A stretch of DNA of 64,000 nucleotides. It comes from Gulosibacter sp. 10. GTDB lineage: Bacteria; Actinomycetota; Actinomycetes; Actinomycetales; Microbacteriaceae. This document shows positions 12,386 to 43,214 of the stretch, in pieces (the first letter of the stretch is position 1; every line of letters starts with the position of its first letter). Location of the stretch: contig NZ_FUIC01000027.1 in NCBI RefSeq assembly GCF_900163695.1, positions 30,807 to 94,806 on the forward strand. Direction: 5' to 3'. The notes below the pieces were generated by a model that made no database searches, was not told the DNA's origin, and worked only from the letters and a program-made list of their open reading frames with translations. A program made the translations under genes and the position numbers.

Positions 12386-12400
12386 CCTCGGCCTCCCAGA

Positions 12401-12434
12401 GAGTTAGGGTCACCTTAGTTATTGGCCCTAACTC
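12401..12434. promoter_or_regulatory. 9-bp inverted repeat GAGTTAGGG-N16-CCCTAACTC immediately upstream of the tetR-irtA-irtB module
   Basis: Seen directly in the 58-bp gap between the MFS stop (12385) and the TetR start (12444). Weak (11/19) similarity to an IdeR box only. More consistent with a TetR-type operator. Confidence 0.35.
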
Positions 12435-12443
12435 GGGAGGCGC

Positions 12444-13142
12444 GTGGTGACGAACATCGGCGGGAGACCGCGTCGCATCGATCGGCGGGATATCCTCCGC
12501 GTCGGTCTCGGCATCGGACTCCGGGACCTCAGCCTCAACGCCGTGGCCTCAGCGCTCGGCGTCTCCGCGGCGGCGCTGTACCGGCACGTGGACGGGCGAT
12601 GGGGGCTCGAGCAGCTGGTGGGGGAGCACCTGCTCGCCGAGCTGCGCCTGCCCGACGACCCGGAGCGGGACGCGGCGGGGCACCTCGTCGACTTCGGGCT
12701 CGCGCTGCGCGAGTCCGTGCTCGGCCATCCCGGCCTCGCCGCGTACCTGCAGACGCTCTTCCCGCGCGGGGACGGCGGCCGGGCGCTGCTCGTCGCCGAG
12801 ATCGAGGCGCTCGGCCGCCGCGGCTACGCGCCGGCGACCGCGCTGGTGCTCGCGAGCGCCGTCGCCTCGCACACCATCGGCTACGCCGCCGGCGAGGAGA
12901 TCCAGCGGGATCGGGGCGCGGAGCTCGAGCAGCACCGCGATCGCGTGCTGTCCGGGATCATGGCCGACGAGCGGCTCCAGCTCGCGCACACCGACCTGCC
13001 GCAGGTCGACTCGGCGGGCTATTTCCGGCTCGTGCTCATGGCGGTGGTCGACGGGCTCGTGGCCGCCGCGCCGAAGGATCGATCCGTGCACGAGGTGGTG
13101 GCCGCGCTCGAGGCGCGCCACTGCCGAGAGGCGGTGCGCTGA
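12444..13142 (+). CDS. TetR-like transcriptional regulator
   Basis: GTG start preceded by [28 protein letters not shown]. Its stop overlaps the irtA-like start (ATGA at 13140-13144). Confidence 0.7.
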
Positions 13143-15829
13143 TGGCGAAGCGGGGCTTCCAGGGCGCGATCATGCGCGGCTTCGGCGCCCGCGACCACAT
13201 CGCGGTCGTCACGGGCAGGGAGTACCTCGCCGAGCACTTCGTGCGCGTGCGCATGACCTCCGAGACGCTCTTCGACGAGGCGGTGACGGGGCCGGCGGCC
13301 TGGGCCCGCTTCTGGTTCCCCGACCCCGACGGGGGCGAGGCCGAGTACCAGCGCGGCTACACCTTCAGCGAGGCCGATGCGGCCACCGGCGAGTTCGCCG
13401 TCGACTTCGTCCTGCACGAGCCCGCCGGCCCGGCCTCGATCTGGGCCAGGACGGCCGAGCCGGGCTCGGCCGTGCCGGTGCAGGCCGTCGCGACCACCCG
13501 ATTCGACCTCCCGGCCGAGACGCCCGAGGGGTTCCTGCTCATCGGCGACTCCGCGTCGATCCCGGCCATCGGCGGGATCCTCGAGGCGCTGCCCCGAGAC
13601 GTCCCGGTCGAGGTGTACCTCGAGCAGCACGAGGACGCGGACGCGACGATCCCGCTGCCGCGGCATCCCCTCGCGCGCATCCACCGACTGCCGCGGGAGG
13701 GCGCCGACTCGCTGGCCCGCGGCATCGAGGCGCGCGACTGGTCCAACTGGTACGCCTGGATCACGCCGGAGTCCGGCTCCCTCAAGCACCTGCGCACCCG
13801 GCTCCGCGACGAGTTCGGGTTCCCGAAGTCGGAGATGCACCCCCAGGCGTACTGGATCGAGGGCCGCTCCATGGGGAAGATGCGCAACGAGGACGCCGCG
13901 GATGCGGTGCCCGCGGCCGCATCCGTGTCCGAAACCGCGACCGTTCCCGGCGTCGCCGCGGGGGCCGACGGCGCGCGATCGCCCGAGCCGCAGCCCGAGT
14001 CCCGGCCACAGCCCGAGCCCGCCGCCTCCGCGCCCAGGGGCGAGTGGCGGGCGAACGCGGCCGGGCGGCTGCTCGCGCCCCTGCGGATCACCTTCTGGCT
14101 CGCGGGGATCCTGCAGGGCATCGTCACGCTCGTCGAGCTCGCGCCCTTCGTCCTGCTCGTCGAGCTGTCGCGGCTGCTGCTCGAGGGCGCCGAGCCCGCG
14201 CGGCTCTGGACGGTGGGCCTGTGGGCGGCGGGGCTCATGGCCGCGGGCGCGCTGTGCTCGGCGGGGCTGCTCCTCTGGCTCCACGCGGTGGATGCGCGGC
14301 TCTCGAGGGACCTCCGCCGCCGACTGCTCGGCAAGACGGCCCGCCTGCCGCTCGGCTGGTTCGACGCGCGAGGATCGGGCGGGGTCAAGCAGCTCATGCA
14401 GGACGACACGCTGTCGCTGCACTACCTCGTGACCCACGCGGTGCCGGACGCCGTCGCCGCGGCGCTCGCGCCGATCGCCGTGCTGGTGTACCTCTTCGTC
14501 GTCGACTGGCGGCTCGCGCTCGTCCTGCTCGTGCCGGTGCTCGTCTACGTCGTGACGATGTACGGCATGATCGTGCGCAGCGGGACGCGGACGCGCCAGG
14601 CGGTGGCCTGGTCCGAGCGCATGAACGAGGAGGCCGGCGCGTACCTCGAGGGGCAACCCGTGGTCCGCGTCTTCGGCGGGGCCGCGGCCTCCGGCTTCCG
14701 AGCGGCGCTGGGGGAGTACATCCGCTTCCTCGACGCCTGGCAGCGGCCCTTCACCGGGCAGAAGACGGTCATGGACCTCGCGACCCGCCCGGCGACCTTC
14801 CTGCTGCTCATCCTCGGGGTCGGCGCCCTGCTCGTGACCGGCGGCTCGATGGATCCCATCGCGCTCCTGCCCTTCCTGTTCCTCGGGACCACCTTCGGCG
14901 CGCGGCTCCTCGGCATCGGCTACGGACTCTCGGGGCTTCGGGAGGGGCTGCTCGCGGCCAAGCGCATCCAGGTGGTTCTCGACGAGCCCGAGCTCGAGAC
15001 CCGTCCGGCGGAGGCGCCCGCGGCGAAGGGGCCCGTGGGCGAAACGGCCCCGGGGCTCGTGGAGTTCGAGGGCGTCGGATTCGCCTACCGCCCCGGGGCG
15101 CCGGTGCTGCAGGGCATCGATCTGCGGCTCGAGCCGGGCACCGTCACCGCGCTCGTCGGCCCGTCCGGCGCGGGCAAGTCCACCCTGGCCGCCCTCCTCG
15201 CGCGCTTCCACGACCCCGTCGACGGCGCCATCCGCGTCGGCGGCGCGGACCTCCGCGAGCTCGGCGCCGACGAGCTGTACTCCCGCGTGGGCTTCGTCTT
15301 CCAGCAGACGCAGCTCGTCCGCGGCACGGTGCGGGAGAACATCGCCCTCGCCGTCCCCGACGCCGACGACGACCGGGTGGTCGCGGCGGCGCGGGCCGCG
15401 AACATCCACGAGCGGATCCTGCGCCTCCCGGACGGGTACGAGACGGAGCTCGGCCCCGGAGCCGCGCTCTCCGGCGGCGAGCAGCAGCGGCTCACCATCG
15501 CCCGGGCGATCCTCGCCGACTCGCCGGTGCTCGTCCTCGACGAGGCGACCGCGTTCGCCGACCCCGAGTCCGAGCACCTCGTGCAGCAGGCGCTGAGCCG
15601 CCTCACCGCCGGTCGCACGGTGCTCGTCATCGCCCACCGGCTGCACACGATCACCCGCGTCGACCGGATCGCCGTGCTCGAGGAGGGGCGCCTCGTCGAA
15701 TCCGGGACGCACGACGAGCTGCTCCGGCGCGACGGCACCTACCGCAGACTCTGGCACGCCGGCGGCTACGAGGAGCGCCCCGCCCGGGCATCCGAGCCGG
15801 CGGCCACCGGGAAGGAGACCCGCGCATGA
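13142..15829 (+). CDS. irtA: IrtA-like siderophore importer subunit: N-terminal siderophore-interacting (FAD-binding, ViuB/SIP-like) domain fused to ABC exporter-fold transmembrane domain and ATPase
   Basis: 895 aa. N-terminal about 250 aa has the SIP/FAD-binding RxYT motif (QRGYTFSE). A six-helix TMD follows. C-terminal NBD has Walker [10 protein letters not shown], the LSGGEQQR signature and Walker B VLVLDEAT. Confidence 0.85.
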
Positions 15830-17559
15830 TCCGGACGTTCCTCGACCTGCTGCCGAGCGGCAGCCGCGCGCGCCTCGCAGCGCACCTGGCACTGACCCTG
15901 CTGAGCGTCGCGCTGCGCGCCGCCGGCATCGTGCTCCTGGTGCCCGCCCTCGCCGCGCTGTTCGGCCCCGAGCCCGCAGGAGCCTGGCCGTGGATCGGCG
16001 CACTGGCGGCCGCGACCGTCGCGGGCTGGATCGTCGACTGGGTCGTGGCCCGCATCGGCTTCGACCTCGGCTTCGGACTCCTCGAGCACGGGCAGGCCGC
16101 CGTCGCGGAGCGCATCGCCCGAATCCGGCTCGGCTGGTTCGACGTCGAGCATGCGGCGGCCGCGCGACGCGCCGTGGCGGCCACCGGCCCGGAGCTCGTC
16201 GGGCTCATCGGCTATCTCGTGACCCCGCTGCTCAGCGCCGTGCTGCTGCCGATCGCGATCGGGGTCGCGCTCCTCCCGATCGCGTGGCCGCTGGGCGTCG
16301 CCGCGCTCATCGGCGCACCGCTCCTGCTCGGCGCCTTCTGGGCCTCCTCCGCCCTCGGCCGGCGGGCGGACGCCGAGGCGGCGGCGACGAACAGCGATCT
16401 CACCGAGCGGATCGTCGAATTCGCCAGGGTGCAGCAGGCGCTGCGGGCCTCGCGTCGGGTCGAGCCGGCGCGCAGCAGCGCGGGCGAGGCGCTCGCCCGC
16501 CAGCACGGGGCCGGCATGCGCCTGCTCCTGATGCAGGTGCCGGGGCAGATCGTCTTCAGCCTCGCGACGCAGCTCGCGCTGATCGTCCTGGCCGGCACGA
16601 CCGTGCTGCTCACCACCGGCGGAGCCGTGAGCATCCCCGAGGCGATCGCGCTCATCGTCGTGATCGTCCGCTACCTCGACCCGTTCCTCTCGCTGGGCGG
16701 GCTCGCCCCCGGCCTCGAGTCGGCCTCGCGCACGCTGCGCGACATCGGGCGCGTGCTCGACGCCGAGCCGGTGCGCGAGGGCGCCGAGCGCGTGCCGGCC
16801 GCCGACGCCCCCGCGATCGAGCTCCGGGGGGTCGGGTTCCACTACGGCGACCCGGCGCAGCCCGTGCTGGAAGGGCTCGACCTCCGGATCGAGGCGGGCA
16901 CGACCACCGCGATCGTCGGCCCCTCCGGCTCGGGCAAGAGCACCGTCCTGGCGCTCATCGCGGGCCTGCACGAGCCGACCTCGGGGCGGGTGCTGGTGGA
17001 GGGCGTCGACCTCGCCGCCCTCGATGCGGGCAGCCGCGCCGCGCTCATCACCATGGTCTTCCAGCAGCCCTTCCTCTTCGACGGCACGATCCGCGAGAAC
17101 GTGCTCGTCGGCGCCCCGGGCGCCCGGGAGGCCGCGCTCGAGCACGCCGCACGGCTCGCCCGCGTGGATGCGGTCGTCGCGGGCCTGCCCCGCGGCTGGG
17201 AGACGCGTACGGGCGAGGGTGGCGCATCGCTCTCCGGCGGGGAGCGGCAGCGCGTCTCCATCGCGCGGGCGCTGCTCAAGCCGGCGCCCGTCCTGCTCGT
17301 GGACGAGGCGACCAGCGCGCTCGACACCGAGAACGAGGCGGCCGTGGTGGCCGCGCTGGAGGAGGACCCCAGGCGCCGCACCCGGGTGATCGTCGCCCAC
17401 CGGCTCGAGAGCGTCCGGCGCGCGGACCGGGTCCTGTTCCTCGAGGAGGGCCGGATCGTGGAGGACGGGCCGGTGGAGGCGCTCCTGCGGGCGAGCGGTC
17501 GGTTCGCCGAGTTCTGGCGGCGGCAGGACGCGGCCTCGGGGTGGCGGATCCGCGACTAG
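15826..17559 (+). CDS. irtB: IrtB-like ABC transporter permease/ATP-binding subunit
   Basis: 577 aa. ATG overlaps the irtA-like stop (ATGA) and is preceded by GAAGGAG. TMD plus NBD ([28 protein letters not shown]). Confidence 0.85.
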
Positions 17560-22204: not shown

Positions 22205-22630
22205 ATGACGGACAGCGTGCGAATCGATGCGTGGCTCTGGTCGGTGCGCGTCTACAAGACCAGGTCGGCCGCCACCGCCGCCGTGCGCGGCGGCAAGGTG
22301 CGGGTGAACGACAACCACGTCAAGGCCTCGTACGGTGTGCGCATCGGGGACCGGGTGCGCGTGCGCATCGACGGCTTCGACCGCATCCTCGTGGTCAAGG
22401 CGCTGCTGCAGAAGCGGGTCGGCGCGCCCGTCGCCGCGACGGCCTACGAGGACCGCTCCGCGCCGCTGCCGCCGCGCGAGCTGCGCCGGCCGCCGGCCAT
22501 CCGCGAGCGCGGGGCCGGCCGTCCCACCAAGCGCGAGCGCCGCGAGCTCGACCGCCTGCTCGCGCAGGACGAGCGCGACCTGGATCGGATCCGGGCGGAG
22601 CTGCTCGGCGAAGCGCAGCCCGAGGACTGA
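22205..22630 (+). CDS. S4-domain RNA-binding protein (Hsp15/HslR-like)
   Basis: 141 aa. N-terminal S4 motif (VRIDAWLWSVRVYKTRSAA...GGKVRVND) and a basic C-terminal tail. Confidence 0.8.
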   Translation: MTDSVRIDAWLWSVRVYKTRSAATAAVRGGKVRVNDNHVKASYGVRIGDRVRVRIDGFDRILVVKALLQKRVGAPVAATAYEDRSAPLPPRELRRPPAIRERGAGRPTKRERRELDRLLAQDERDLDRIRAELLGEAQPED

Positions 22631-22657
22631 GCCGCGGCCGTTCGGCAGGGGGGCGCC

Positions 22658-23950
22658 TCAGCGCCCCGCCGCGGCGTCGATCGCCCGGACGAGCCCATCG
22701 GGGAGCAGCGCCTGCCACCAGTGCGCGTCGTGCCCGCCGACGGCGGTGTCGAAGGAGAGCAGGCCGCCCTGCACGCGCAGCAGCTCGGCGGCCTGGCGGA
22801 TATCCCGGAACAGGTCCCATTCGAGCACTCCGCCCTGGAGGACGAGCGGGGAGGGCCGTGCCGCGGCGGCGCGCTCGCCGAACCAGGTGCCCCGGCCCTC
22901 GCCGAACCGGCCGCTGTTGGGCCACCAGAACGACGGGGACTGCGCGACCCCGGCCAGCACGAGGTCGGGGTCGCGGGTCGCGGCGAGCGCGGTGAAGAGC
23001 CCGCCGAGGCTCTGCCCCGCGAGGATGAGGCCGGCGCTCCGCGGGGCTCCCGCCGCGCGCACCGCTTCGAGCAGCGCGCGCATCGCCTCGGCGTCGGCCG
23101 TGTAGTCGACCGTCCGCTGCCGGGGGCCGCCGGACTCCAGCAGGAGCACGTGGACCGGCTCGCAGCCGCCCGCATCGATGCGTCGCTCGAGCTCCGCGAC
23201 GATCGGGTACTGCTCGTGCCACACCTCGCCGTCGAGGAGCAGCACGGCGGGCGACTCCGGGGTCGCGCGGGGATGCGACCAGCGGTGCAGCGCGAGCGGC
23301 TCGCCGTTCGAGGGGCTCGGGATGCGCACGGGCCCGTCGAGCTCGGCGCGCTCGGCGAGGCGCAGCTCCGGGGCGCCCGGCCCGCGGCCGACGGCCAGGC
23401 GCACGGGGCCGAGCTTGTTCGGCGCGTACTCGCGCGCGTGCGGATCCTCGACGAGCCGGGCGCGCAGCCCGGCCGCGAGCGCCATGTCGACCGGCGCGTG
23501 GAGCCGCGGCGCGGGCAGCGGCGAATCGGGGAGGACGAACTGATACGTGCCGAGCCAGGCGGACGGCAGCTCGAGCGTCAGCGAGTGCAGCCGGGTCTCC
23601 GCGATCGGCGCGAGGGCGGTATCGGCCGGGTCGAGGATGTCGCTGATCTTGTTGGCGAACAGCAGGACTCCGTGGGGCGCCTCGCCGTGCCAGAGGAAGG
23701 TGACGAGGACCTCGCCGTCGTCCCCCGCGGCCGGCTCGACGAGCGGGGTCCCCTGGGCGCGCAGGGCCGTCGCGAGCTCCGCCGCCCGCCGCTCGCGCTC
23801 CTCCGGGCCGGCGATCACGGCGAGCTCGGCCCGCACCGCCTCGACGCGCGGCGATTCGGCCACGGGCAGCGGCCACGGGCGGATCGAGTGCGGCGGCATG
23901 GTGGGATCGCGGCGGGCGCCGTGCTGCGGTGCGGTTCGTGCTGCGGACAT
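22658..23950 (-). CDS. enterochelin-esterase-like (Fes/IroE family) alpha/beta hydrolase
   Basis: 430 aa with a GAAGGAG RBS. C-terminal esterase domain has the nucleophile elbow GQSLGG. An N-terminal domain precedes it, as in Fes. Located at the distal end of the siderophore ABC operon. Confidence 0.7.
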   Translation of the reverse strand: MSAARTAPQHGARRDPTMPPHSIRPWPLPVAESPRVEAVRAELAVIAGPEERERRAAELATALRAQGTPLVEPAAGDDGEVLVTFLWHGEAPHGVLLFANKISDILDPADTALAPIAETRLHSLTLELPSAWLGTYQFVLPDSPLPAPRLHAPVDMALAAGLRARLVEDPHAREYAPNKLGPVRLAVGRGPGAPELRLAERAELDGPVRIPSPSNGEPLALHRWSHPRATPESPAVLLLDGEVWHEQYPIVAELERRIDAGGCEPVHVLLLESGGPRQRTVDYTADAEAMRALLEAVRAAGAPRSAGLILAGQSLGGLFTALAATRDPDLVLAGVAQSPSFWWPNSGRFGEGRGTWFGERAAAARPSPLVLQGGVLEWDLFRDIRQAAELLRVQGGLLSFDTAVGGHDAHWWQALLPDGLVRAIDAAAGR

Positions 23951-24009
23951 CGGGGATGCTCCTTCTCTGGCGATGCGGTTCGGGGATGGTCGGGTTCGGG
24001 CGGCCGGGG

Positions 24010-25131
24010 CTACCGGTCGTCGGCGCGGAGCCGGCTCGCGAGCGTGCCGGGCCCGTATCCGGCGGGGAATCGTCCGGCGGCGACGAGGGCCGGGACGACC
24101 TCCTCGGCGAAGAGCTCGAGGGAGCGCCAGGAGCCCATGGGCAGGGCGATGACGCCGTCGGCCGCGCCCGCGTCGAGCCGCTCGAGGATGCGATCCGCGG
24201 CGGCGCGCGGGGTGTCGGCGACGGTCCAGTGCCGGACGTGAGCGGGCGCGCGGATCCCGCTGCGCTCCGCCGACTCCCGGGCCTCCTGCCGCGTCTCGGC
24301 CAGCCAGAGCGAGAGCCCGGGCAGGATGCGGGGCGAGGGGCGCCCGGCCGCGGCGGCGAGCCGGGCGGCCTCGCGACGGAGCCGGATGCCGTCCTCGGGC
24401 TCCGCGGTCATGGCGAAGATCGCATCGGCGCGGCGCGCGGCGAATGCCAGCGAGGCCGCGGAGCCCCCGGCGTGGAGGAGCGGCAGCGCCGACTCCTCGA
24501 ACGCCGGCGCGGTGAGCGGGCCGGTCGCGCGGAACGGCCCGTGGGGCTCCGCCGTGCGCACCGCGCCGGGGTCGGCGAACTCGCCCGACTCCCGGTTGAG
24601 CCGGAGCACGCCGGCGGGGAAGGTGGCCCGCAGCTCCTCGACGGCCGCGACGAACTCCTCGGCCCGGCGGTACGGGTCATCGACCGGCGGGACGTCGGGG
24701 AAGCGGCCGGGATCGGCGAGCGAGGTGACGACGTTCCAACCGGTCCGGCCCTCGGAGAGCCGGTCGAGCGACTGCAGCTGCCGGGCGGCGGAGTACGCCT
24801 GCGCGAACGTCGAGGAGAGCGTGGGGACGAGGCCGATCCGGGAGGTCGTCGCGGCGAGCGCGCTCATCACGACGATCGGGTCGAGCGAGGCGAACCCCGG
24901 CTCGCGGGACATCGGGGCGGGATCGAGCACGATCGCGTCCGGGCGGAACACGAAGTCGAGCCCGGCGGCCTCGGCGAGTCTCGCCGCCCGCAGCGGGAAC
25001 TCGAGCGAGAACATCGTCTCGACGCCGCTGTCCCGGCGCCGCCAGGCGTCGCCCTTCAGCCAGGTGGGCGAGAGCGAGAGGCCGATGACGGCGCGCTCGC
25101 GAGCCGCCGGGACGCCGTCCGCGGCCGTCAC
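24010..25131 (-). CDS. LLM-class (luciferase-like) flavin-dependent monooxygenase/oxidoreductase
   Basis: About 373 aa. LLM signature LDRLSEGRTGWNVVTS. GTG start overlaps the ABC ATPase stop (GTGA). The N-terminal extension in the 600-aa track ORF was rejected. Confidence 0.75.
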   Translation of the reverse strand: MTAADGVPAARERAVIGLSLSPTWLKGDAWRRRDSGVETMFSLEFPLRAARLAEAAGLDFVFRPDAIVLDPAPMSREPGFASLDPIVVMSALAATTSRIGLVPTLSSTFAQAYSAARQLQSLDRLSEGRTGWNVVTSLADPGRFPDVPPVDDPYRRAEEFVAAVEELRATFPAGVLRLNRESGEFADPGAVRTAEPHGPFRATGPLTAPAFEESALPLLHAGGSAASLAFAARRADAIFAMTAEPEDGIRLRREAARLAAAAGRPSPRILPGLSLWLAETRQEARESAERSGIRAPAHVRHWTVADTPRAAADRILERLDAGAADGVIALPMGSWRSLELFAEEVVPALVAAGRFPAGYGPGTLASRLRADDR

Positions 25132-25952
25132 GAGGAGGGGGCCGCGGTGCTGCTGGCGATCGGCACGACCATCGGCGTCTCGAACACGGGATCGCTGAGC
25201 ACCCGGGCGGTGAGGCCGAAGACGTCCTCGAGCAGGGGCTCGGTGAGCACCTCCTCGGGCCGGCCGCTCGCGGCGAGCGCGCCGTCCTTCATCACGACGA
25301 GATGATCGGCGTACCGGGCGGCCTGGTTCAGGTCGTGCAGCACGAGCACCATGGTGCGCGACTCCTCGCGGTTGAGGCGCCGGCAGAGCTCGAGCACGTC
25401 GAGCTGATGGGCGATGTCGAGGAACGTGGTCGGCTCGTCGAGGAGCATCGTCGGGGTGTCCTGCGCCAGCAGCATCGCGATCCAGACCCGCTGCCGCTGC
25501 CCGCCGGAGAGCTCCTCGACGGCGCGGTCCGCGAGGTCGATCACGCCAGTCGAGCGCATCGCGAGGTCCACGGCGCGCTCGTCGTCCTGCGACCACTGCT
25601 GCAGCATCCGCTGATGCGGGAACCTGCCGCGGGCGACGAGATCCGCGACGGTGATGCCGAACGGCGCCGTCGAGGACTGGGGGAGCAGTCCGAGGCGCTT
25701 CGCGAGCGTTTTCGGGGCCAGCGAGCGGACGTCCTCCCCGCCGAGCAGGACGCGCCCGGCATCGGGGACGAGCAGGCGCGAGAGCGCGCGCAGGAGGGTC
25801 GACTTGCCGCACGCGTTCGGGCCGATGATGATCGTGACCTCGCCCTCGGGGATCGAGACGGTGAGATCGCGCGCGATCTCGCGGGCGTCGTAGGAGAGCG
25901 TGACGCGCTCGGCGTGGAGCGAGGAGGGGGATGGCATTGGGGATCCTTGCAT
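25128..25952 (-). CDS. iron-siderophore ABC transporter ATP-binding protein (FepC/FecE-like)
   Basis: Walker A GPNACGKST, signature LSGGQRQR, Walker B LLDEPT. An alternative start at 25937 is preceded by AAGGA. Confidence 0.9.
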   Translation of the reverse strand: MQGSPMPSPSSLHAERVTLSYDAREIARDLTVSIPEGEVTIIIGPNACGKSTLLRALSRLLVPDAGRVLLGGEDVRSLAPKTLAKRLGLLPQSSTAPFGITVADLVARGRFPHQRMLQQWSQDDERAVDLAMRSTGVIDLADRAVEELSGGQRQRVWIAMLLAQDTPTMLLDEPTTFLDIAHQLDVLELCRRLNREESRTMVLVLHDLNQAARYADHLVVMKDGALAASGRPEEVLTEPLLEDVFGLTARVLSDPVFETPMVVPIASSTAAPSS

Positions 25953-25953
25953 G

Positions 25954-27000
25954 TCAGACCTGCTTGGAGCGGGTCAGGAGCCAGATGAGGTAGAAGCCGC
26001 CGATGATGCCGGTGATGCGGCCGATCGGCAGCGTCGCGGTGACCGGCAGCAGCTGGCCGATGAGGTCGGCGACGAGGAGCATCGCGGCGCCCATCGCCCC
26101 GGCGCTGAACACCGGCATGGACCGCGAGCGCGAGAGGCGGATGACGAGCTGCGGCGCCGCGAGCGCGATGAACGCGATCGGGCCGGCCGCGCCCGTGGCG
26201 AGCCCGGCGAGCACCACGGCGGCGAGCATGAGCAGCAGCCTGGTCCGCTCGACGCGCACGCCGAGCTGCTGCGAGAGGTCGTCGCCCATCTCCATGAGGG
26301 AGGCGCGGCGCCCGAGCGCGCCGATGAACGGCACGATGAGGACCACGCCGATCATGACGGGCAGGGCGTGGCCCCAGTTGCGGGCGTCGAGCGAGCCGGA
26401 GAGCCAGAGGTTCGCGGCGATGGCGTTGTCGAGCTCGCCCAGCACGAGCATGAGCCCGTTGAGCGCGCCGAGCACCGCGCCGACCCCGATGCCCACGAGC
26501 ACGAGCCGGTAGCCGCCCGTCACCCCGCCCTTGCGGGAGAGCAGGTACACGGCGGCGGCGGTGAGGATGCCGCCCGCGACCGCGCTCAGGGCGATCTCGA
26601 GCGGGGTGCCCTGGAAGATCACGATCTGCGTGATCGCGCCCGTGGCGGCGCCGGTCGTGAAGCCGATGATGTCCGGCGAGCCGAGGGCGTTGCGCGAGAC
26701 CGACTGGAAGACGGCGCCGGAGACCCCCAGCGCGGCGCCGGCGAAGATCGCGGTGAGCACGCGGGGGAGGCGCAGGTTCTGCACCACGTGCGTATTGCGC
26801 CCGTCCTCGCCGCCGAAGAGCGCCGAGAGCACGTCGCCCATGGAGATGTCGAGGCTGCCGACGGTCATGGCGAAGACGCCGAGGACGAGCAGCAGCGCGA
26901 GCAGCACCGCGGTGACGGCGACGAGCCGCGGCGAGACGAGCACGGAGAAGCGCCGGGTGCGCCAGACGGCGCGGCGGGGCGGGGCTTCGGTTCGGGTCAC
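25954..27000 (-). CDS. iron-siderophore ABC transporter permease (FecCD family)
   Basis: 348 aa. FecCD-type hydrophobic profile. 1-nt gap to the ATPase gene. Confidence 0.85.
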   Translation of the reverse strand: MTRTEAPPRRAVWRTRRFSVLVSPRLVAVTAVLLALLLVLGVFAMTVGSLDISMGDVLSALFGGEDGRNTHVVQNLRLPRVLTAIFAGAALGVSGAVFQSVSRNALGSPDIIGFTTGAATGAITQIVIFQGTPLEIALSAVAGGILTAAAVYLLSRKGGVTGGYRLVLVGIGVGAVLGALNGLMLVLGELDNAIAANLWLSGSLDARNWGHALPVMIGVVLIVPFIGALGRRASLMEMGDDLSQQLGVRVERTRLLLMLAAVVLAGLATGAAGPIAFIALAAPQLVIRLSRSRSMPVFSAGAMGAAMLLVADLIGQLLPVTATLPIGRITGIIGGFYLIWLLTRSKQV

Positions 27001-28085
27001 AGTTGCACCATCCTGCGGCGGCGGACGAGGTAGACGAAGAAGGGGCCTCCCAGCAGCGCGACCATGATGCCGACGCTCACCTCGCCCGCGACGGGCAGGG
27101 CGCGCCCCAGCGTGTCCGCGAACACGAGCAGGAAGGCGGAGATGAGCGCGGAGTAGGGCAGCACCCAGCGGTGGTCGACCCCGACGATGAGCCGCGCGAG
27201 GTGGGGCGCGGCGAGCCCGAGGAAGGCGATGGGGCCGGCGGCTGCGGTGGCGGCGCCCGCGAGGACGATCACGACGACCCCCGAGAGGGCCCAGACGCGC
27301 GAGGGGTTGCCGCCCAGGGATTTGCTGAGGTCCTCGCCGAGCATCGCGGCATCGAGCGCCCGCGAGAGGAAGAAGGCGGCGACCAGGCCGAGCGCGACGA
27401 CCGGGGCCACCGCGGCGAGCACGTCGTAGCCGCGGCCGGCGAGGGAGCCGACCATCCAGTGCCGGTACCGGTCGAAGACGTCCTCGGGGCCGTTCACGAG
27501 CACGAACTGGGTGAGCGCCGTCATCACGACCGAGAACGCGGCCCCGGCCAGCACCAGGCGCACGGGATTCGTGCCGCGGCGCACGCCGCCGAGCAGGTAC
27601 ACCGCGACGCCCGCCGCGGCCGCGCCGACGAAGCCGAGCAGCATGTACCCGAAGACGTTGGCGATGCCGAAGAACGAGATGCCCGTCGCGATCGCGAGGG
27701 CGGCGCCGCCGTTGACGCCGAGGATCCCGGGCTCGGCCAGCGGATTGCGGGTGAGCGACTGCATGATCACGCCCGCGACCCCGAGCGCGAGCCCGACGAC
27801 CACCGAGAGCAGGGCGCGCGGGATCCGCTGATGGAACACCAGCAGGTGCGCGGAATCCTCCGGGTCGAACGCGAAGATCGCCTGCCAGGTGTCGGCGAGC
27901 GCGATCTCGCGGACGCCGATGCAGGCGCTGAAGAACATCGTCACCGCGATCGCGATGACGAGGGGGACGACTCCGAGCCGGCGCCGACGGCGCATCCGCG
28001 CGGTGACGGGGGAGGACGACGGGGCGGGGCGGCGCCGGGCGGACCCGGCGCCGCCGCGCCGACTAGTTGCCGAAGTGGTTGACAA
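26997..28085 (-). CDS. iron-siderophore ABC transporter permease (FecCD family)
   Basis: 362 aa. FecCD family. 4-nt overlap with the downstream permease. Confidence 0.85.
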   Translation of the reverse strand: MSTTSATSRRGGAGSARRRPAPSSSPVTARMRRRRRLGVVPLVIAIAVTMFFSACIGVREIALADTWQAIFAFDPEDSAHLLVFHQRIPRALLSVVVGLALGVAGVIMQSLTRNPLAEPGILGVNGGAALAIATGISFFGIANVFGYMLLGFVGAAAAGVAVYLLGGVRRGTNPVRLVLAGAAFSVVMTALTQFVLVNGPEDVFDRYRHWMVGSLAGRGYDVLAAVAPVVALGLVAAFFLSRALDAAMLGEDLSKSLGGNPSRVWALSGVVVIVLAGAATAAAGPIAFLGLAAPHLARLIVGVDHRWVLPYSALISAFLLVFADTLGRALPVAGEVSVGIMVALLGGPFFVYLVRRRRMVQL

Positions 28086-29064
28086 CGCTGTCGACGATCT
28101 CCGTGGCGCTGTACTTGTCGATGCGGAAGGAGTTCAGCCCGAGGCCGTACACCTGCCCGTCCTGCACGGAGGGCAGATTGGCGAGGGTCGGGTCCTCCAC
28201 GAACGCCTTCGCGCCCTCGTCGTCCTGGCTCAGGATGAATGTGGTGTCGGCGGTGAGCTCGGTGAGGTTCTCGTAGGAGGCGAAGACGAAGTCCTCTCGC
28301 TCCTGCGGCTGGGTGTGCCAGTCGGGGTTCGGCTCCTCGATCTCGAAGCCGAGCTGGGCGAGCAGCTGCCCGTGCGGGCCCTCGGCGCGGCCGATGGGGT
28401 TGCCCTCGCTGGGGCCGTTGTAGGAGACGATGTTCGCCTGGCCCTCGGGCACGGTGATGCTCGAGGCGGCGTCCTCGACGTAGGCGTCGAACTCGTCGAT
28501 GCTCGCCTGCGCCTGCTCCTCGAGGCCGGTGGCCTCGCCGAGCTCGACCGCGAGGTCCTGCCAGGTCTGCGCGCCGTAGTCGACGACGATCGTCGGCGCG
28601 ATCTGCTGCAGCTCGGCGACCTGGTCGGCGACGGAGTCGGCGCCGGTCGCGGCGACCACGATGAGGTCCGCGTCGTAGGCGTAGGCCGCCTCGATGTCGA
28701 CCTCGCCCGCCGACCACAGGTTCTCCACGCCCTGCTCCTCGGCGACGTCCGCCCACTGGGCGAAGAAGTCGCCGGCGGCGTCGGTGCCCGAGGCGACCAG
28801 CGGCGCGTCGATCGCGAGCAGCGTGCCCGAGACCGAGACGGAGGTCGAGACGATGTTCTGCGGCTGCTCGGGGATCTCGGTGGTGGTGCCGTCCGCGTTC
28901 TCGAAGGTGCGGGGCCAGGTGCCGCCGTCGGTCGAGGAGGCATCGCCCTCGCCGGTGGATTCGGGCGCGGCGTCGGAGGCGCAGCCGGCGAGCGCGAGGG
29001 CGCCGACGGAGAGCGCGGCGAGCCCGGCCAGCAGTCGGGAGCGCGTGGAGCGCGAACGGTTCAT
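28063..29064 (-). CDS. iron-siderophore ABC transporter substrate-binding lipoprotein
   Basis: Start at Met index 14 (MNRSRSTRSRLLAGLAALSVGALALAGC) with an AAAGGA RBS, giving a signal peptide plus a LAGC lipobox. Periplasmic-binding-protein type 2 sequence. The 3' end overlaps the permease start. Confidence 0.8.
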   Translation of the reverse strand: MNRSRSTRSRLLAGLAALSVGALALAGCASDAAPESTGEGDASSTDGGTWPRTFENADGTTTEIPEQPQNIVSTSVSVSGTLLAIDAPLVASGTDAAGDFFAQWADVAEEQGVENLWSAGEVDIEAAYAYDADLIVVAATGADSVADQVAELQQIAPTIVVDYGAQTWQDLAVELGEATGLEEQAQASIDEFDAYVEDAASSITVPEGQANIVSYNGPSEGNPIGRAEGPHGQLLAQLGFEIEEPNPDWHTQPQEREDFVFASYENLTELTADTTFILSQDDEGAKAFVEDPTLANLPSVQDGQVYGLGLNSFRIDKYSATEIVDSVVNHFGN

Positions 29065-29168
29065 GATCGTCCTTTCGGGGGTCGACGATGCGTCGAAGGC
29101 CGGCACCGCGGCGGCGAGGGATTCGCGTGGCCGTGGAAGGGCCGGATTCGCGCATCACTGAGCATTGG

Positions 29169-29187
29169 CTAGGCAAGGCTAGCCTAA
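29169..29187. promoter_or_regulatory. candidate IdeR/DtxR iron box (CTAGGCAAGGCTAGCCTAA) upstream of the siderophore ABC operon
   Basis: 15/19 match to the IdeR consensus TTAGGTTAGGCTAACCTAA, counted by hand. Lies about 105-125 bp upstream of the SBP start codon on the operon side of the terminator. Confidence 0.4.
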
Positions 29188-29230
29188 CCGGAAGGTGTTC
29201 GGAATGCCGGGACGCGAACCGGGGGAGAAC

Positions 29231-29290
29231 GGGCTGAAAAACAGCGAGGGGCCGGCGCCGCGATCAAGCATCGCGGCGCCGGCCCCTCGC
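29231..29290 (-). terminator. intrinsic terminator: perfect 21-bp stem (GCGAGGGGCCGGCGCCGCGAT / loop CAAGC) followed by a U-tract on the minus strand
   Basis: Perfect inverted repeat at 29244-29264 and 29270-29290, seen directly. Minus-strand downstream sequence is TGTTTTTCAG. Lies 6 nt after the AKR stop codon. Confidence 0.65.
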
Positions 29291-29295
29291 CGTCG

Positions 29296-30782
<1,487 letters not shown>

Positions 30783-31420
30783 TCGTCGACCATCCCGGTG
30801 GCCTGCATGAGCGCGTACATCGTGGTCGGGCCGACGAACCGGAATCCGCGCGCGCGGAGCGCGGCGCTCATCGCCGTGGACTCCGGCGTGATCGCGGGCA
30901 CCTCCCGCAGGGAGCGCGGCCGCGGCGCGGCGGCGGGGGCGAATGACCAGAGCAGCTCGTCGAACCCGCCGGGCGCCATCTCCGCGACGAGCCCGGCGTT
31001 GGTGATCGCGGCGAGGATCTTCTGCCGGTTGCGGATGATGCCCGCGTCGGCGAGCAGGCGCTCGACGTCGGCGTCCGTGTAGCCGGCCACCGCGCGCGGA
31101 TCGAATCCGTCGAACACGGCGCGGAACCGGGGCCGCTTGCGCAGCACCGTGATCCACGAGAGCCCCGCCTGGAAGCCCTCGAGCACGAGGCGCTCGAAGA
31201 GCGCGGCGTCGCCGTGCACCGGATGCCCCCATTCCTCGTCGTGATATCGCGTGTAGTCGGGCGTCCTGCCCGCCCAGCCGCAGCGGGCGGCGCCGTCCTC
31301 GCCGGTGATGAGATCGCTGTCCATGCCGTTCAGCGTACGGTCCTTCCGGGCGCGGCGCGGCGCCCATCCACACCGGCCGGACCTGTGGATGCATGCGCCG
31401 CCCACGGCGGAACTGCGAGG

Positions 31421-32572
31421 ATGTCGGGTATGAATCCGAACTCGCAGCCGCCGAATCCGCAGCAGCCGCACCCGCAGTTCCAGGGCCGGCCGGGGCAGGG
31501 CCCGCAGCCGTTCGCGAACGCCGGGTCGCCGCGTCCGGCCGCCGGGGGCGTTCCCGGGCAGCCCCCGCGCGGCCCGCAGGGCTTCCCCGCCGAGCCGGTC
31601 GGCGGAGGCCGGCCGCCGGCCGTAGGCGGGCCAGCCCCGCAGGCCCCGAACCGCCGGCCGGAGGACGGCATCCGCGAGCGCCGGGCGATCTCGATCAACG
31701 GCCTGCTGGGCCTGCTCATCGGCCTCGGGCTCATGGTCGTGGGGGTCGTCGTCGGGTTCAACGGCGCCCGGGCCGCCGGCGACTCCGCGCCGGGCGGGGG
31801 CAGCGGCGGCGGCGTCCTGGCGATCGTCCTGGGCATCCTGCTCTTCGTGCTGGGATGGCTGCTGCTGCAGAGCCTCACGATCAACGGCCCGGGCGACTCC
31901 AAGGTCGTCCAGTTCTTCGGCTCCTACATCGGCACCATCCGCGCCGAGGGGCTGCGCATGACCGTGCCGCTCACGCGCAAGCGCCCGGTGTCGGTGAAGG
32001 TGCGGAACTTCGAGACGCACGAGCTCAAGGTGAACGACGCCGACGGCAATCCCATCAACATCGCCGCGATCATCGTGTGGCGGGTGGCGGACACCGCCCG
32101 CGCCGTCTTCTCGGTCGAGCACTTCCAGCAGTTCGTGGCGGTGCAGTCCGAGTCCGCGCTGCGGCACGTGGCCTCGACCCACCCCTACGACGACCCCGGC
32201 CCGGGGGAGACCTCGCTGCGGGGCTCGGCCGAGCTGATCTCGCGCGAGATCGCCGAGGAGGTCGCGGCGCGGATCGGCATCGCGGGCCTCGAGGTCGTCG
32301 AGGCCCGGATCTCCTCCCTCGCCTACGCGCCGGAGATCGCGCAGTCGATGCTGCAGCGCCAGCAGGCCTCGGCGGTGATCGCGGCGCGCGAGCGCATCGT
32401 GGAGGGCGCCGTGACGATGGTGCAGCAGGCCGTGCAGCGGCTCGAGGACGACGGCACCGTGGCGCTCGACGCGGACCGGCGCGCGGAGATCGTGTCGAAC
32501 ATGCTCGTCGTGCTCACCTCCGACCAGACGGTCACGCCGGTCATCAACACGGCGGCGAACCGCCCCGGCTGA
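31421..32572 (+). CDS. SPFH/band-7 domain membrane protein with Pro/Gln/Gly-rich N-terminal low-complexity region
   Basis: Start placed after the tag start (ATG at 31421 or 31430). Pro/Gln/Gly-rich disordered N-terminus, one TM segment, then an SPFH domain (VVQFFGSYIGTIRAEGLRMTVP...). Confidence 0.75.
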   Translation: MSGMNPNSQPPNPQQPHPQFQGRPGQGPQPFANAGSPRPAAGGVPGQPPRGPQGFPAEPVGGGRPPAVGGPAPQAPNRRPEDGIRERRAISINGLLGLLIGLGLMVVGVVVGFNGARAAGDSAPGGGSGGGVLAIVLGILLFVLGWLLLQSLTINGPGDSKVVQFFGSYIGTIRAEGLRMTVPLTRKRPVSVKVRNFETHELKVNDADGNPINIAAIIVWRVADTARAVFSVEHFQQFVAVQSESALRHVASTHPYDDPGPGETSLRGSAELISREIAEEVAARIGIAGLEVVEARISSLAYAPEIAQSMLQRQQASAVIAARERIVEGAVTMVQQAVQRLEDDGTVALDADRRAEIVSNMLVVLTSDQTVTPVINTAANRPG

Positions 32573-42062: not shown

Positions 42063-43214
42063 CTACCCTTCGACCGCCGTTCGGAAGATCGAGGCCACCG
42101 GGGAGTCGTCCGGCAGATCCGCCCGGCGCACCGCGACGACGCGACCGCCGGTGCGCAGCACCCGCGCCGCGATCTCGTCGACGAGCCGGTAGGTGGTCGG
42201 CCCGGGCTCCGGGACCGGGAACACGGCGCCGAACTCGTCGATGACCCCCTCGTCGTTCGCCTCGATGTCGAACAGCAGCTCCTCCACCTGGCCGGCGCTG
42301 GCCGCCTTCGCCACCGCCTCGAGGTTCGAGCCGGCCCGGCGGTGCGCCTTCTGGGTGCCGAAGCGCTCGCACCACTCCGCGAGGCCGCGCCGGTACTCGC
42401 GGTCGAGGACGGCGCGGCCGCGCTGCTCGAGATCCGCGAGCGAGAGCGAGGCGGGGTTCGCCGAGATGCCCTCCTCGAGCAGCGCGCCGTAGCGGTTGAC
42501 CTGCCGGTACGCCGGATCGAGGTCGGCGGCCGCGGCGAGCACGAGCGGCACCGAGTCCTCGCCGATCTCGGCGAGCACCGCGTCCTGCACGATGGTGCAG
42601 TAGCGCCGCTGCTCGATCTTCGGTCCGAGCGTGCCGTCGGCCCGATGCCGGTCGAACCGTCCGGTGGTGACGGAGTTGCTCAGCACGTCCGAGGCGTCCT
42701 CGGGGAGCGAGCGCAGCTCGATGCTCCGGCTCGTCGCCGCCGAGTCGAGGTAGAGCAGCCGGACGTCGCCCTCGGTGACGGCGAGCACGTAGCCGGTGTG
42801 GGCGAAGCTCGAGGCGCGCACGAGCGGGCCGACGTCGAACCGGTCGCCGACGGCGGTGAGCGGCGCGAGGCGGTTCATCAGGCGGAAGGCGCGGATGCCC
42901 TCGGGCGAGGCGAAGACGGCGACGCTGCGAGCCTGGGTGCCCCAGAAGTCGCGATCGCCCTCGAGCTCCCGGATCCGCTCGGCGATCGCCTCGCGCTCGG
43001 GCTTGGGGATGTCGATCTCGGCGAGCTCCGCGAGCGCGGCGTTCGCGGCTGATCGGAGCGAGAGGCGCGCGGCCTCGGTGTCGTGGGCGATCGGGGGACG
43101 CTGGCCGTCGTCCTTCCCGTGCTCCGCGGCGCTCACGTAGATCGACACGCTCGCCACGTCGCGGTGCCTGGTCAGCTGGGCAAAGTCTTCTGCGGAAGGA
43201 ATATCGATGCTCAT
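42063..43214 (-). CDS. conserved hypothetical protein, possibly eRF1/Pelota-like (baeRF-type) fold
   Basis: 383 aa, normal composition. C-terminal segment AGQVEELLFDIEANDEGVIDE resembles the eRF1 domain-3 motif. Assignment is by weak pattern recall only. Confidence 0.45.
   Translation of the reverse strand: MSIDIPSAEDFAQLTRHRDVASVSIYVSAAEHGKDDGQRPPIAHDTEAARLSLRSAANAALAELAEIDIPKPEREAIAERIRELEGDRDFWGTQARSVAVFASPEGIRAFRLMNRLAPLTAVGDRFDVGPLVRASSFAHTGYVLAVTEGDVRLLYLDSAATSRSIELRSLPEDASDVLSNSVTTGRFDRHRADGTLGPKIEQRRYCTIVQDAVLAEIGEDSVPLVLAAAADLDPAYRQVNRYGALLEEGISANPASLSLADLEQRGRAVLDREYRRGLAEWCERFGTQKAHRRAGSNLEAVAKAASAGQVEELLFDIEANDEGVIDEFGAVFPVPEPGPTTYRLVDEIAARVLRTGGRVVAVRRADLPDDSPVASIFRTAVEG

What the first reader, a model, noticed from the sequence alone, without database searches (positions are those of the whole stretch)
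29169..29187. IdeR/DtxR-type iron box upstream of the FepBDGC-like operon
CTAGGCAAGGCTAGCCTAA matches 15 of 19 positions of the actinobacterial IdeR consensus TTAGGTTAGGCTAACCTAA. It sits about 105-125 bp upstream of the SBP start. It lies between the upstream gene's intrinsic terminator (29231-29290) and the operon, where an iron-repressed promoter is expected.
Basis: seen in the sequence. Interest (0 to 1): 0.5.

Follow-up and report, generated by a model that had tools for sequence, protein, structure and literature searches.

The report
IdeR/DtxR iron box before siderophore operon
A 19-base operator of the well-known actinobacterial iron repressor (IdeR/DtxR) type sits in front of a siderophore-uptake operon and is conserved in eight other actinobacterial genera, so it is real but ordinary.

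Summary
CTAGGCAAGGCTAGCCTAA lies at 29169-29187 and matches the IdeR consensus at 15 of 19 positions. It sits 105-123 nt upstream of the ATG (29064, minus strand) of a FepB-type lipoprotein gene, and downstream of the terminator of the preceding aldo/keto reductase gene.

It is far beyond chance. About 0.008 such matches are expected in this 72.7% G+C window. A matrix built from 31 verified C. glutamicum DtxR sites scores it 23.3 bits. That is above the median of the verified sites. The best score in 200 simulated windows was 15.0 bits.

All four departures from the consensus fall on positions 4/5 of the CCTAA pentamers. All four pentamers keep the T3 and C1/C2 that IdeR needs.

In eight orthologous fepBDGC loci from eight other actinobacterial species (seven other genera plus a second Gulosibacter), the top matrix hit of each whole locus lies just upstream of the SBP gene (17.8-29.4 bits). 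An alphaproteobacterial ortholog has a RirA-type palindrome there instead.

Best explanation: an Fe2+-IdeR operator overlapping the promoter of a six-gene catecholate-siderophore uptake operon (29064 to 22658).

Not shown: an ideR gene (none in the window, and the rest of the genome was out of reach), binding, the transcription start, or iron response.

It is a new member of a known kind, of low interest.

The parts
29169..29187 (-). IdeR/DtxR-type iron box. On the operon strand it reads TTAGGCTAGCCTTGCCTAG. It consists of four CCTAA-type pentamers: CCTAA, GCTAG, CCTTG, CCTAG.
   Evidence: It matches the consensus at 15/19. It scores 23.3 bits with a PWM built from 31 verified C. glutamicum DtxR sites, higher than 22 of the 31 leave-one-out scores. 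All four pentamers keep T3 and a C at position 1 or 2. It is the most conserved 19-mer region of the intergenic gap across 8 orthologs in a scan that used no IdeR prior.
29176..29181 (-). Candidate -10 hexamer TAGCCT (TANNNT), inside the box. Inferred.
   Evidence: Read by hand. The same TAGSCT at box offset 7 is present in 7 of the 9 boxes examined (this window and 6 of the 8 orthologs). The strict sigma-70 scan found no promoter. No transcription-start data are available.
29199..29204 (-). Candidate -35 hexamer TTCCGA, 17 nt upstream of TAGCCT. Inferred and weak: 3/6 to TTGACA.
   Evidence: In the Microbacterium CIAB417 ortholog a perfect TTGACA lies 19 nt upstream of the equivalent TAGGCT.
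29234..29290 (-). Intrinsic terminator of the upstream aldo/keto reductase gene. It isolates the operon promoter from that gene.
   Evidence: A 20-pair stem (18 G-C pairs) followed by TGTTTTT.
29296..30168 (-). Upstream aldo/keto reductase gene (DkgA-like). Not part of the regulated unit.
   Evidence: Pfam Aldo_ket_red, E = 2e-53. NCBIfam DkgA, 335 bits, below the cut-off.
28063..29064 (-). fepB-like gene for the siderophore substrate-binding lipoprotein. First gene of the operon.
   Evidence: Pfam Peripla_BP_2. NCBIfam NF008200, the Fe2+-enterobactin SBP equivalog, scores 381 bits against a cut-off of 205. The protein is identical to one from Gulosibacter sp. 10.
26997..27995 (-). fepD-like permease gene.
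   Evidence: Pfam FecCD, E = 1e-91. The best NCBIfam match is the Fe(3+)-siderophore permease, below the cut-off. The start follows the gene call on the identical metagenome contig L001.
25954..27000 (-). fepG-like permease gene. It overlaps the previous gene by 4 nt.
   Evidence: Pfam FecCD, E = 1e-74. The best NCBIfam match is the iron-enterobactin permease, below the cut-off.
25128..25952 (-). fepC-like ATPase gene.
   Evidence: Pfam ABC_tran. The best NCBIfam match is the iron-enterobactin ATP-binding protein, 334 bits, below the cut-off.
24010..25131 (-). Luciferase-like FMN-dependent monooxygenase gene (NtaA/DmoA-like). Its GTG start overlaps the fepC-like stop codon (GTGA).
   Evidence: Pfam Bac_luciferase. 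NCBIfam TIGR03860, 212 bits, below the cut-off. The start/stop overlap is read. The same gene follows the ATPase gene in Microbacterium CIAB417 and Micromonospora.
22658..23950 (-). Enterochelin-esterase-like gene. It follows a 59-nt gap with no terminator and is the probable last gene of the operon.
   Evidence: Pfam Enterochelin_N plus Esterase. NCBIfam enterochelin esterase, 100 bits, below the cut-off. No terminator-like site in 22400-25300. RBS GAGAAGGAG.

Best explanation
The 19-bp element at 29169-29187 is an operator of the IdeR/DtxR (DmdR) type. It controls a six-gene catecholate-siderophore uptake and utilisation operon on the minus strand: fepB-, fepD-, fepG- and fepC-like genes, a luciferase-like monooxygenase gene and an enterochelin-esterase-like gene (29064 to 22658).

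Proposed mechanism. When iron is sufficient, two Fe2+-loaded IdeR dimers bind the four CCTAA-type pentamers on opposite faces of the DNA. The box contains the likely -10 hexamer (TAGCCT, 29181-29176), so bound IdeR would occlude RNA polymerase and shut the operon off. When iron is scarce, apo-IdeR would leave and the operon would be transcribed.

Shown here: the sequence match, its statistical significance, the identity of the operon, and conservation of the box in orthologous loci.

Inferred: the promoter position, the identity of the binding protein, and repression by iron.
For: 1. Match and significance. The site matches the consensus at 15/19 and is unique in the window. Expected count is 0.008 per window. 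It scores 23.3 bits with a PWM from 31 RT-PCR- and EMSA-verified C. glutamicum DtxR sites (Brune 2006, PMC1382209). The leave-one-out median of those sites is 21.0 bits. The simulated-window maximum was 15.0 bits.

2. The departures are benign. C6, A7 and G14 are each the second commonest base at their position in verified sites (23-26%). All four departures fall on pentamer positions 4/5. Every pentamer keeps T3 and C1/C2. Marcos-Torres 2021 (PMC8464063) found T3 and C1/C2 to be the minimum for each quintet, and found that A4A5 substitutions only lowered affinity (apparent KD 128 nM).

3. Phylogenetic footprint. Eight orthologous loci were examined: Arachnia, Gulosibacter chungangensis, two Microbacterium, Brachybacterium, Micromonospora, Nocardia and Agromyces. 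Their SBPs are 59-70% identical to this one and the fepBDGC gene order is the same. In each, the highest PWM hit of the whole 7-13 kb locus lies 47-153 nt upstream of the SBP start, at 17.8-29.4 bits. All hits elsewhere score <=13 bits. A scan with no IdeR prior places the conservation peak of the 231-nt gap at 29167-29194, about 4 sd above the mean.

4. Context. The SBP passes NCBI's FepB equivalog cut-off, and the partners best match FepD, FepG, FepC and Fes. The box lies after a strong terminator.

5. Verified DtxR sites of repressed genes lie within promoters (PMC1382209).

6. The Devosia ortholog lacks the box (maximum 3.5 bits). It carries TGA-N9-TCA, the RirA-box of Rhizobiales. The operon family is therefore likely iron-controlled by whichever iron regulator the host has.

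7. DtxR/IdeR regulators are reported in all 11 Microbacterium genomes sequenced in one study, from the same family, Microbacteriaceae (PMC7438953).
Against: - No IdeR/DtxR homolog is encoded in the 64-kb window (tblastn with Mtb IdeR, best E = 0.59; no Fe_dep_repress hit among the ORFs scanned with Pfam). The rest of the genome could not be reached.
- The strict sigma-70 scan finds no promoter. The -35 candidate is weak. Because a -10-like TAGSCT is intrinsic to the box consensus, its presence is not independent evidence.
- The PWM comes from Corynebacterium, not from a Microbacteriaceae species.
- There are no binding, transcription-start or expression data.
- The second-best PWM hit in the window, upstream of an irtAB-like cluster, is not supported as an IdeR box by its own orthologs. 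No second confirmed regulon member is visible here.
Confidence: 0.85

Rival explanations
1. The box is bound by a different DtxR-family paralog, for example an Mn2+-responsive MntR/SirR-type regulator. The operon would then respond to manganese or another metal rather than iron.
For: DtxR-family paralogs coexist with IdeR in Actinobacteria (own knowledge). The regulator could not be identified here because no DtxR-family gene is in the window.
Against: The site fits the iron-type 19-bp consensus and the four-pentamer rule established for IdeR. The cargo is a FepB-equivalog siderophore importer plus an enterochelin-esterase-like gene. PMC8464063 describes the Mn-dependent DtxR-family regulators as structurally and functionally more divergent from IdeR.
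Confidence: 0.05
2. The conserved element is mainly a core promoter (-10 region and spacer), or the operator of an unrelated regulator that recognises the local palindrome AGGCTAGCCT. The resemblance to the IdeR box would then be incidental.
For: TAGSCT within the box is a TANNNT -10-like hexamer. In the nine boxes the upstream half is better conserved than the downstream half (74/81 against 57/81 matches), which suggests an extra constraint there. The window's site also contains a 10-bp even palindrome, AGGCTAGCCT.
Against: The conserved block in the orthologs is TTAGGTTAGSCT followed by ACC, far longer than a -10 hexamer and identical to the IdeR consensus. The AGGCTAGCCT palindrome is not present in any ortholog. 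The Devosia ortholog replaces the block with a different iron-regulator motif rather than keeping a promoter-like block.
Confidence: 0.06
3. It is a chance match with no function.
For: The consensus is degenerate in practice: verified sites match it at only 11-16 of 19 positions. About 0.4 matches of >=15/19 are expected somewhere in a 3-Mb genome of this composition.
Against: The expected number in this particular 231-nt gap is about 3e-5 (derived). None of 200 simulated windows reached even 16 bits, against 23.3 observed. The same element recurs at the same place in 8 of 8 actinobacterial orthologs, whose intergenic DNA shows no comparably conserved block elsewhere.
Confidence: 0.02

Closest known systems
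IdeR (Mycobacterium tuberculosis), DtxR (Corynebacterium diphtheriae and C. glutamicum), DmdR1 (Streptomyces) and SeIdeR (Saccharopolyspora erythraea) iron boxes, consensus TTAGGTTAGSCTAACCTAA
   Same: The site has the same 19-bp length and four CCTAA-type pentamers in palindromic arrangement. Its score falls in the upper range of verified C. glutamicum sites. It lies upstream of a siderophore ABC importer, the commonest class of IdeR/DtxR targets (PMC1382209). Close look-alikes among verified sites are cg2234 TTAGGCAAGGCTACCTTTT and cg1405 TTTTGTTAGGCTTGCCTAG.
   Different: The host is a Microbacteriaceae species (Gulosibacter sp. 10). I found no experimental IdeR work for that family. Three of the four pentamers end in G instead of A (CCTAG, GCTAG, CCTTG), so affinity may be somewhat below consensus. 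Binding is untested.
Fur-repressed fepB / fepDGC / fes regulon of Escherichia coli (enterobactin uptake)
   Same: The transporter parts are the same: the SBP passes the FepB equivalog cut-off, and the partners best match FepD, FepG, FepC and Fes. The logic is the same: an iron-loaded repressor sits on the promoter.
   Different: The regulator family and operator differ. No Fur box is present here (best 9/19). All genes are in a single co-directional operon. There is an extra luciferase-like monooxygenase gene. The SBP is a lipoprotein of a Gram-positive cell.
RirA-box (TGA-N9-TCA) upstream of iron-uptake genes in Rhizobiales (Rodionov 2006, PMC1698941)
   Same: It occupies the equivalent position upstream of the orthologous SBP gene in Devosia honganensis (AACTTGA-N9-TCAAGTT). 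Its presumed role is the same: iron-dependent repression.
   Different: The motif and regulator family are different. It is not present in this window.

Membership tests
IdeR/DtxR iron box (operator) | A 19-bp near-palindrome matching TTAGGTTAGSCTAACCTAA about as well as verified sites do. | tested here: met
   The site matches at 15/19 (16/19 with S). Verified C. glutamicum sites match at 11-16/19, median 14. The PWM score is 23.3 bits against a leave-one-out median of 21.0.
IdeR/DtxR iron box (operator) | Four CCTAA-type pentamers, each with T at position 3 and C at position 1 or 2 (Marcos-Torres 2021). | tested here: met
   The pentamers are CCTAA, GCTAG, CCTTG and CCTAG, and all pass. The rule is taken from PMC8464063.
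IdeR/DtxR iron box (operator) | Located in or overlapping the promoter of an iron-metabolism gene. | tested here: inconclusive
   The site lies in the only gap between a terminator and a fepB-like gene, 105 nt from the ATG. The -10 (TAGCCT) and -35 (TTCCGA) are assigned by eye only, and the strict scan found none. No transcription-start data are available.
IdeR/DtxR iron box (operator) | Conserved upstream of orthologous genes in related genomes. | tested here: met
   In 8 of 8 actinobacterial orthologous loci the top hit of the locus lies upstream of the SBP gene, at 17.8-29.4 bits. A prior-free scan peaks on the box.
IdeR/DtxR iron box (operator) | A cognate IdeR/DtxR regulator is encoded in the same genome. 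| not testable with these tools
   None is in the window. DtxR/IdeR is reported in all 11 Microbacterium genomes sequenced in PMC7438953.
IdeR/DtxR iron box (operator) | Metal-dependent binding by the regulator and iron-dependent repression in vivo. | not testable with these tools
   This requires EMSA or footprinting and expression assays.
FepBDGC-type ferric-catecholate ABC importer | The SBP belongs to the FepB equivalog family. | tested here: met
   NF008200 scores 381 bits against a cut-off of 205, covering 18-332 of 333 aa.
FepBDGC-type ferric-catecholate ABC importer | The two FecCD-family permeases and the ATPase reach the FepD, FepG and FepC equivalog cut-offs. | tested here: not met
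   The best matches are the FepD, FepG and FepC models, but all fall below their cut-offs (277/428, 304/422 and 334/497 bits). The Pfam FecCD and ABC_tran domains are clear. The parts are Fep-like in architecture, but orthology of the permeases and ATPase to E. coli FepDGC is not established.

The most novel reading that the evidence does not exclude
The most novel reading not excluded concerns the operon family rather than the box. This fepBDGC family has moved between phyla: its SBPs are 59-63% identical between Actinobacteria and the alphaproteobacteria Devosia and Pelagibacterium. Each recipient appears to have re-wired it to its own iron sensor, with an IdeR box in Actinobacteria and a RirA-type TGA-N9-TCA palindrome in Devosia. 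Within Gulosibacter, IdeR may additionally act through a 14-bp half-site (TTAGGGTCACCTTA, 12404-12417). That half-site is layered on a TetR-family operator in front of a SIP-fused IrtAB-like importer, which would give dual control.
Probability: 0.3. Interest if true: 0.35.

Novelty: new member of a known kind. Interest (0 to 1): 0.18.

Why it matters
The finding gives a well-supported annotation: a regulatory site and a six-gene operon for catecholate-siderophore uptake in a little-studied Microbacteriaceae genus. It extends the comparative evidence that the IdeR/DtxR operator is conserved across Actinobacteria, here in eight genera in front of one operon family. It does not change any concept, because IdeR boxes in front of siderophore ABC importers are the textbook case. 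The side observations are modestly more interesting: an operator swap in an alphaproteobacterial ortholog, a conserved monooxygenase partner gene, and a TetR-family operator before an IrtAB-like importer.

Tried and rejected
1. Second IdeR box. The second-best PWM hit in the window is GAGAGTTAGGGTCACCTTA at 12399-12417 (14.6 bits). It lies 27 nt upstream of a TetR-like gene followed by irtA-like and irtB-like genes. The equivalent upstream regions in Brachybacterium, Rhodococcus and Amycolatopsis score only 3.6-11.4 bits. Instead they share an AGTTA-N7-TAACT palindrome. The motif persists in Rhodococcus even though no irtAB-like genes are adjacent there. I judge it more likely to be the TetR-like protein's own operator, and I do not count it as regulon evidence.

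2. IdeR gene in the window. None was found by tblastn or by Pfam on the window's ORFs.

3. Reaching the rest of the genome. The exact SBP sequence was found only on metagenome contigs of 3.5 kb or less.

4. RNA element in the roughly 100-nt leader. There are no Rfam hits anywhere in the window.

5. Other metal-regulator boxes in the gap. The best matches are poor: Fur 9/19, Zur 8/15, RirA 4/6.

6. Strict sigma-70 promoter scan. It found nothing, so the promoter assignment is manual and weak.

7. A +5 register (29174-29192, 16 bits). One of its pentamers lacks T3. It reflects the 5-bp periodicity of the box and is not a separate site.

8. Literature. Rodriguez 2002 (Mtb IdeR boxes) is not held. 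The supplement of the G. molinativorax paper does not mention IdeR or DtxR. No paper on IdeR in Gulosibacter was found.

Full report
**1. The observation**

The plus strand at 29169-29187 reads CTAGGCAAGGCTAGCCTAA. It matches the IdeR consensus TTAGGTTAGGCTAACCTAA at 15 of 19 positions, and at 16 of 19 if the centre is S and W is allowed. Across both strands of the 64-kb window (72.7% G+C), every match of 14/19 or better belongs to this locus. They are the site itself, its reverse complement, or a 5-nt shifted register. The next unrelated matches are 12-13/19.

With the window's base composition, a match of >=15/19 is expected 0.008 times per window and 0.37 times per 3-Mb genome. A degenerate pattern covering the common variants (TWAGGYWAGSCTWRCCTWA) hits the site with one mismatch. 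It found nothing, even at three mismatches, in 100 dinucleotide-preserving shuffles.

**2. Surroundings**

The regulated genes are on the minus strand. The SBP gene starts at ATG 29064. GAAAGGA lies 6 nt upstream, and the product begins MNRSRSTRSRLLAGLAALSVGALALAGC, a lipoprotein signal.

Upstream of the box is the terminator of a DkgA-like aldo/keto reductase gene (30168 to 29296). It has a 20-bp stem at 29290-29244 followed by TGTTTTT.

Downstream the genes run as follows.

| Gene | Coordinates (minus strand) | Evidence |
|---|---|---|
| SBP | 29064-28063 | NCBIfam FepB equivalog NF008200, 381 bits against a cut-off of 205 |
| FecCD permease | 27995-26997 | Best match FepD, below cut-off |
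| FecCD permease | 27000-25954 | Best match FepG, below cut-off |
| ABC ATPase | 25952-25128 | Best match FepC, below cut-off |
| NtaA/DmoA-like luciferase-like monooxygenase | 25131-24010 | GTG start overlaps the ATPase stop codon (GTGA) |
| Enterochelin_N + Esterase protein | 23950-22658 | Follows a 59-nt gap with no terminator |

Tight spacing and a shared strand make a six-gene operon likely. This is an inference.

The SBP is 100% identical to a protein of Gulosibacter sp. 10, a member of the Microbacteriaceae.

**3. Does the site look like a real IdeR/DtxR site?**

I built a symmetrised PWM from the 31 C. glutamicum DtxR motifs whose genes changed expression in a dtxR mutant. Thirty of the 31 shifted in EMSA (Brune et al. 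2006, PMC1382209, Table 1). The site scores 23.3 bits against the window's base-composition background. The training sites have a leave-one-out median of 21.0 bits (range 10.5-28.4). The site exceeds 22 of the 31, and all 31 when a uniform background is used. In 200 first-order Markov simulations of the window, the maximum score averaged 8.4 bits (sd 2.1) and never exceeded 15.0.

Three of the four departures from the consensus (C6, A7, G14) are the second commonest base at their position in verified sites, at 23-26%. Only C1 is rare, at 6%. Verified sites such as cg2234 (TTAGGCAAGGCTACCTTTT) and cg1405 (TTTTGTTAGGCTTGCCTAG) share the same variant half-sites.

Marcos-Torres et al. 2021 (PMC8464063) showed that each IdeR monomer reads one of four CCTAA repeats. 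Two dimers bind the 19-bp site. Each quintet needs at least T3 and a C at position 1 or 2. Replacing A4A5 only lowers affinity (apparent KD 128 nM). The four quintets here are CCTAA, GCTAG, CCTTG and CCTAG. All satisfy the rule, and all four mismatches lie at quintet positions 4/5.

**4. Phylogenetic footprint**

A homolog search and contig look-ups gave orthologous loci with the same SBP-FecCD-FecCD-ATPase order. Their SBPs are 59-70% identical to this one. The species are Arachnia propionica, Gulosibacter chungangensis, Microbacterium sp. CIAB417, Microbacterium sp. No. 7, Brachybacterium timonense, Micromonospora polyrhachis, Nocardia puris and Agromyces archimandritae.

I scanned each whole 7-13 kb locus with the PWM. 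In all eight the best hit lies 47-153 nt upstream of the SBP start, at 17.8-29.4 bits. An example is TTAGGTTAGGCTCACCTAA in Brachybacterium. Every hit elsewhere scores 13 bits or less.

As a test with no IdeR prior, I took every 19-mer of the window's 231-nt gap and summed its best matches in the eight orthologous upstream regions. The peak lies at 29167-29194, with a sum of 112 against a mean of 92.5 (sd 4.8).

The consensus of the nine boxes is TTAGGTTAGSCTnACCTnA. The half distal to the gene is better conserved than the proximal half (74/81 against 57/81 matches).

The alphaproteobacterial ortholog in Devosia honganensis (63% identity) has no such motif (maximum 3.5 bits). It carries AACTTGA-N9-TCAAGTT about 60 nt upstream. 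That fits the RirA-box TGA-N9-TCA of Rhizobiales (PMC1698941).

**5. Mechanism**

The best-supported reading is classical. Fe2+-IdeR binds as two dimers to the box and blocks the operon's promoter. Iron limitation releases it.

The box contains TAGCCT (29181-29176, TANNNT), with TTCCGA 17 nt upstream. In Microbacterium CIAB417 a perfect TTGACA lies 19 nt upstream of the equivalent TAGGCT. In C. glutamicum, verified sites of repressed genes lie within the mapped promoters.

This step is inferred, for three reasons. The strict sigma-70 scan found no promoter. The -10-like hexamer is intrinsic to the box consensus. No transcription-start data exist.

**6. What could not be shown**

No DtxR-family gene lies in the window. 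DtxR/IdeR regulators are reported in all 11 Microbacterium genomes sequenced in one study (PMC7438953). IdeR is described as the main iron regulator of Actinobacteria (PMC8464063). A cognate regulator is therefore expected but unverified. Binding and iron response are untested.

**7. Rivals**

- A chance match is effectively excluded.
- A different DtxR-family paralog such as MntR is unlikely, given the iron-type consensus and the siderophore cargo.
- A pure promoter element, or an operator for an unrelated palindrome-binding protein, is unlikely. The conserved block is the IdeR consensus itself, and the local AGGCTAGCCT palindrome is absent from the orthologs.
- No Fur, Zur or RirA box is present.
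- No Rfam family matches anywhere in the window.

**8. Verdict**

This is a new member of a very well-known kind, in a family (Microbacteriaceae) where I found no experimental work on it. It is useful for annotation and of low general interest (0.18).

Side observations are listed separately. They are the IrtAB-like cluster with a TetR-family operator that partly mimics an IdeR half-site, the operator swap in Devosia, and the conserved monooxygenase partner gene.

Noticed in passing
window 12399-12439 (+), upstream of 12444-17559: The second-best DtxR-PWM hit of the window is GAGAGTTAGGGTCACCTTA (14.6 bits). It contains the 14-bp IdeR half-site TTAGGGTCACCTTA with one mismatch. It lies 27 nt before a TetR-like gene (12444-13142). 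That gene is followed by an IrtA-like gene (SIP/FAD_binding_9 fused to ABC_membrane and ABC_tran, 13142-15829) and an IrtB-like gene (15826-17559). Orthologous upstream regions (L016, L017, L018) do not keep an IdeR box (3.6-11.4 bits). They share CCTTAGTT plus an AGTTA-N7-TAACT palindrome, even in Rhodococcus where no irtAB-like genes are adjacent. It is probably the operator of this widespread TetR-like family (50-62% identity across many actinobacterial genera). Dual control with IdeR is not excluded.
   Followed up: partly
L007 2858-2890 (Devosia honganensis): An alphaproteobacterial ortholog of the SBP (63% identity) has no IdeR box. It carries AACTTGA-N9-TCAAGTT about 60 nt upstream of the start, which fits the RirA-box TGA-N9-TCA of Rhizobiales (PMC1698941). 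A Pelagibacterium lacus homolog (62% identity) also exists. This suggests cross-phylum transfer of the transporter, with its operator replaced by one for the host's own iron regulator.
   Followed up: partly
window 24010-25131 (-): A luciferase-like FMN-dependent monooxygenase gene (NtaA/DmoA-like, below the family cut-off) is translationally coupled to the fepC-like gene through a GTGA overlap. The same gene follows the ATPase gene in Microbacterium CIAB417 (L010) and Micromonospora (L012). Its role in a catecholate-siderophore uptake operon is unknown.
   Followed up: no
L009 4573-4591 and 4593-5882 (Gulosibacter chungangensis): In the sister species an enterochelin-esterase gene lies directly upstream of the SBP gene, and the strong box (23.4 bits) sits between the two. 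A weaker box-like sequence, GAAGGGTACCCTTACTTTT (13 bits), abuts the esterase start. In the window the esterase-like gene is at the end of the operon instead. Gene order has been rearranged, but the box stays in front of the SBP gene.
   Followed up: no
the nine orthologous boxes (window 29169-29187; L008-L015): Read on the operon strand, the half of the box distal to the gene (TTAGGTTAG) is much better conserved than the proximal half (74/81 against 57/81 consensus matches). This suggests an extra constraint on that side, such as an overlapping promoter element.
   Followed up: partly
window 42063-43214 (-), 48314-52746 (-), 31214-32572 (+), 45963-47453 (+): Unrelated genes noted while annotating the window: a bacterial eRF1-like (baeRF family 11) protein next to a DeaD helicase gene, an SbcCD pair, and two SPFH/Band-7 proteins. 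None is iron-related, and none has a box.
   Followed up: no
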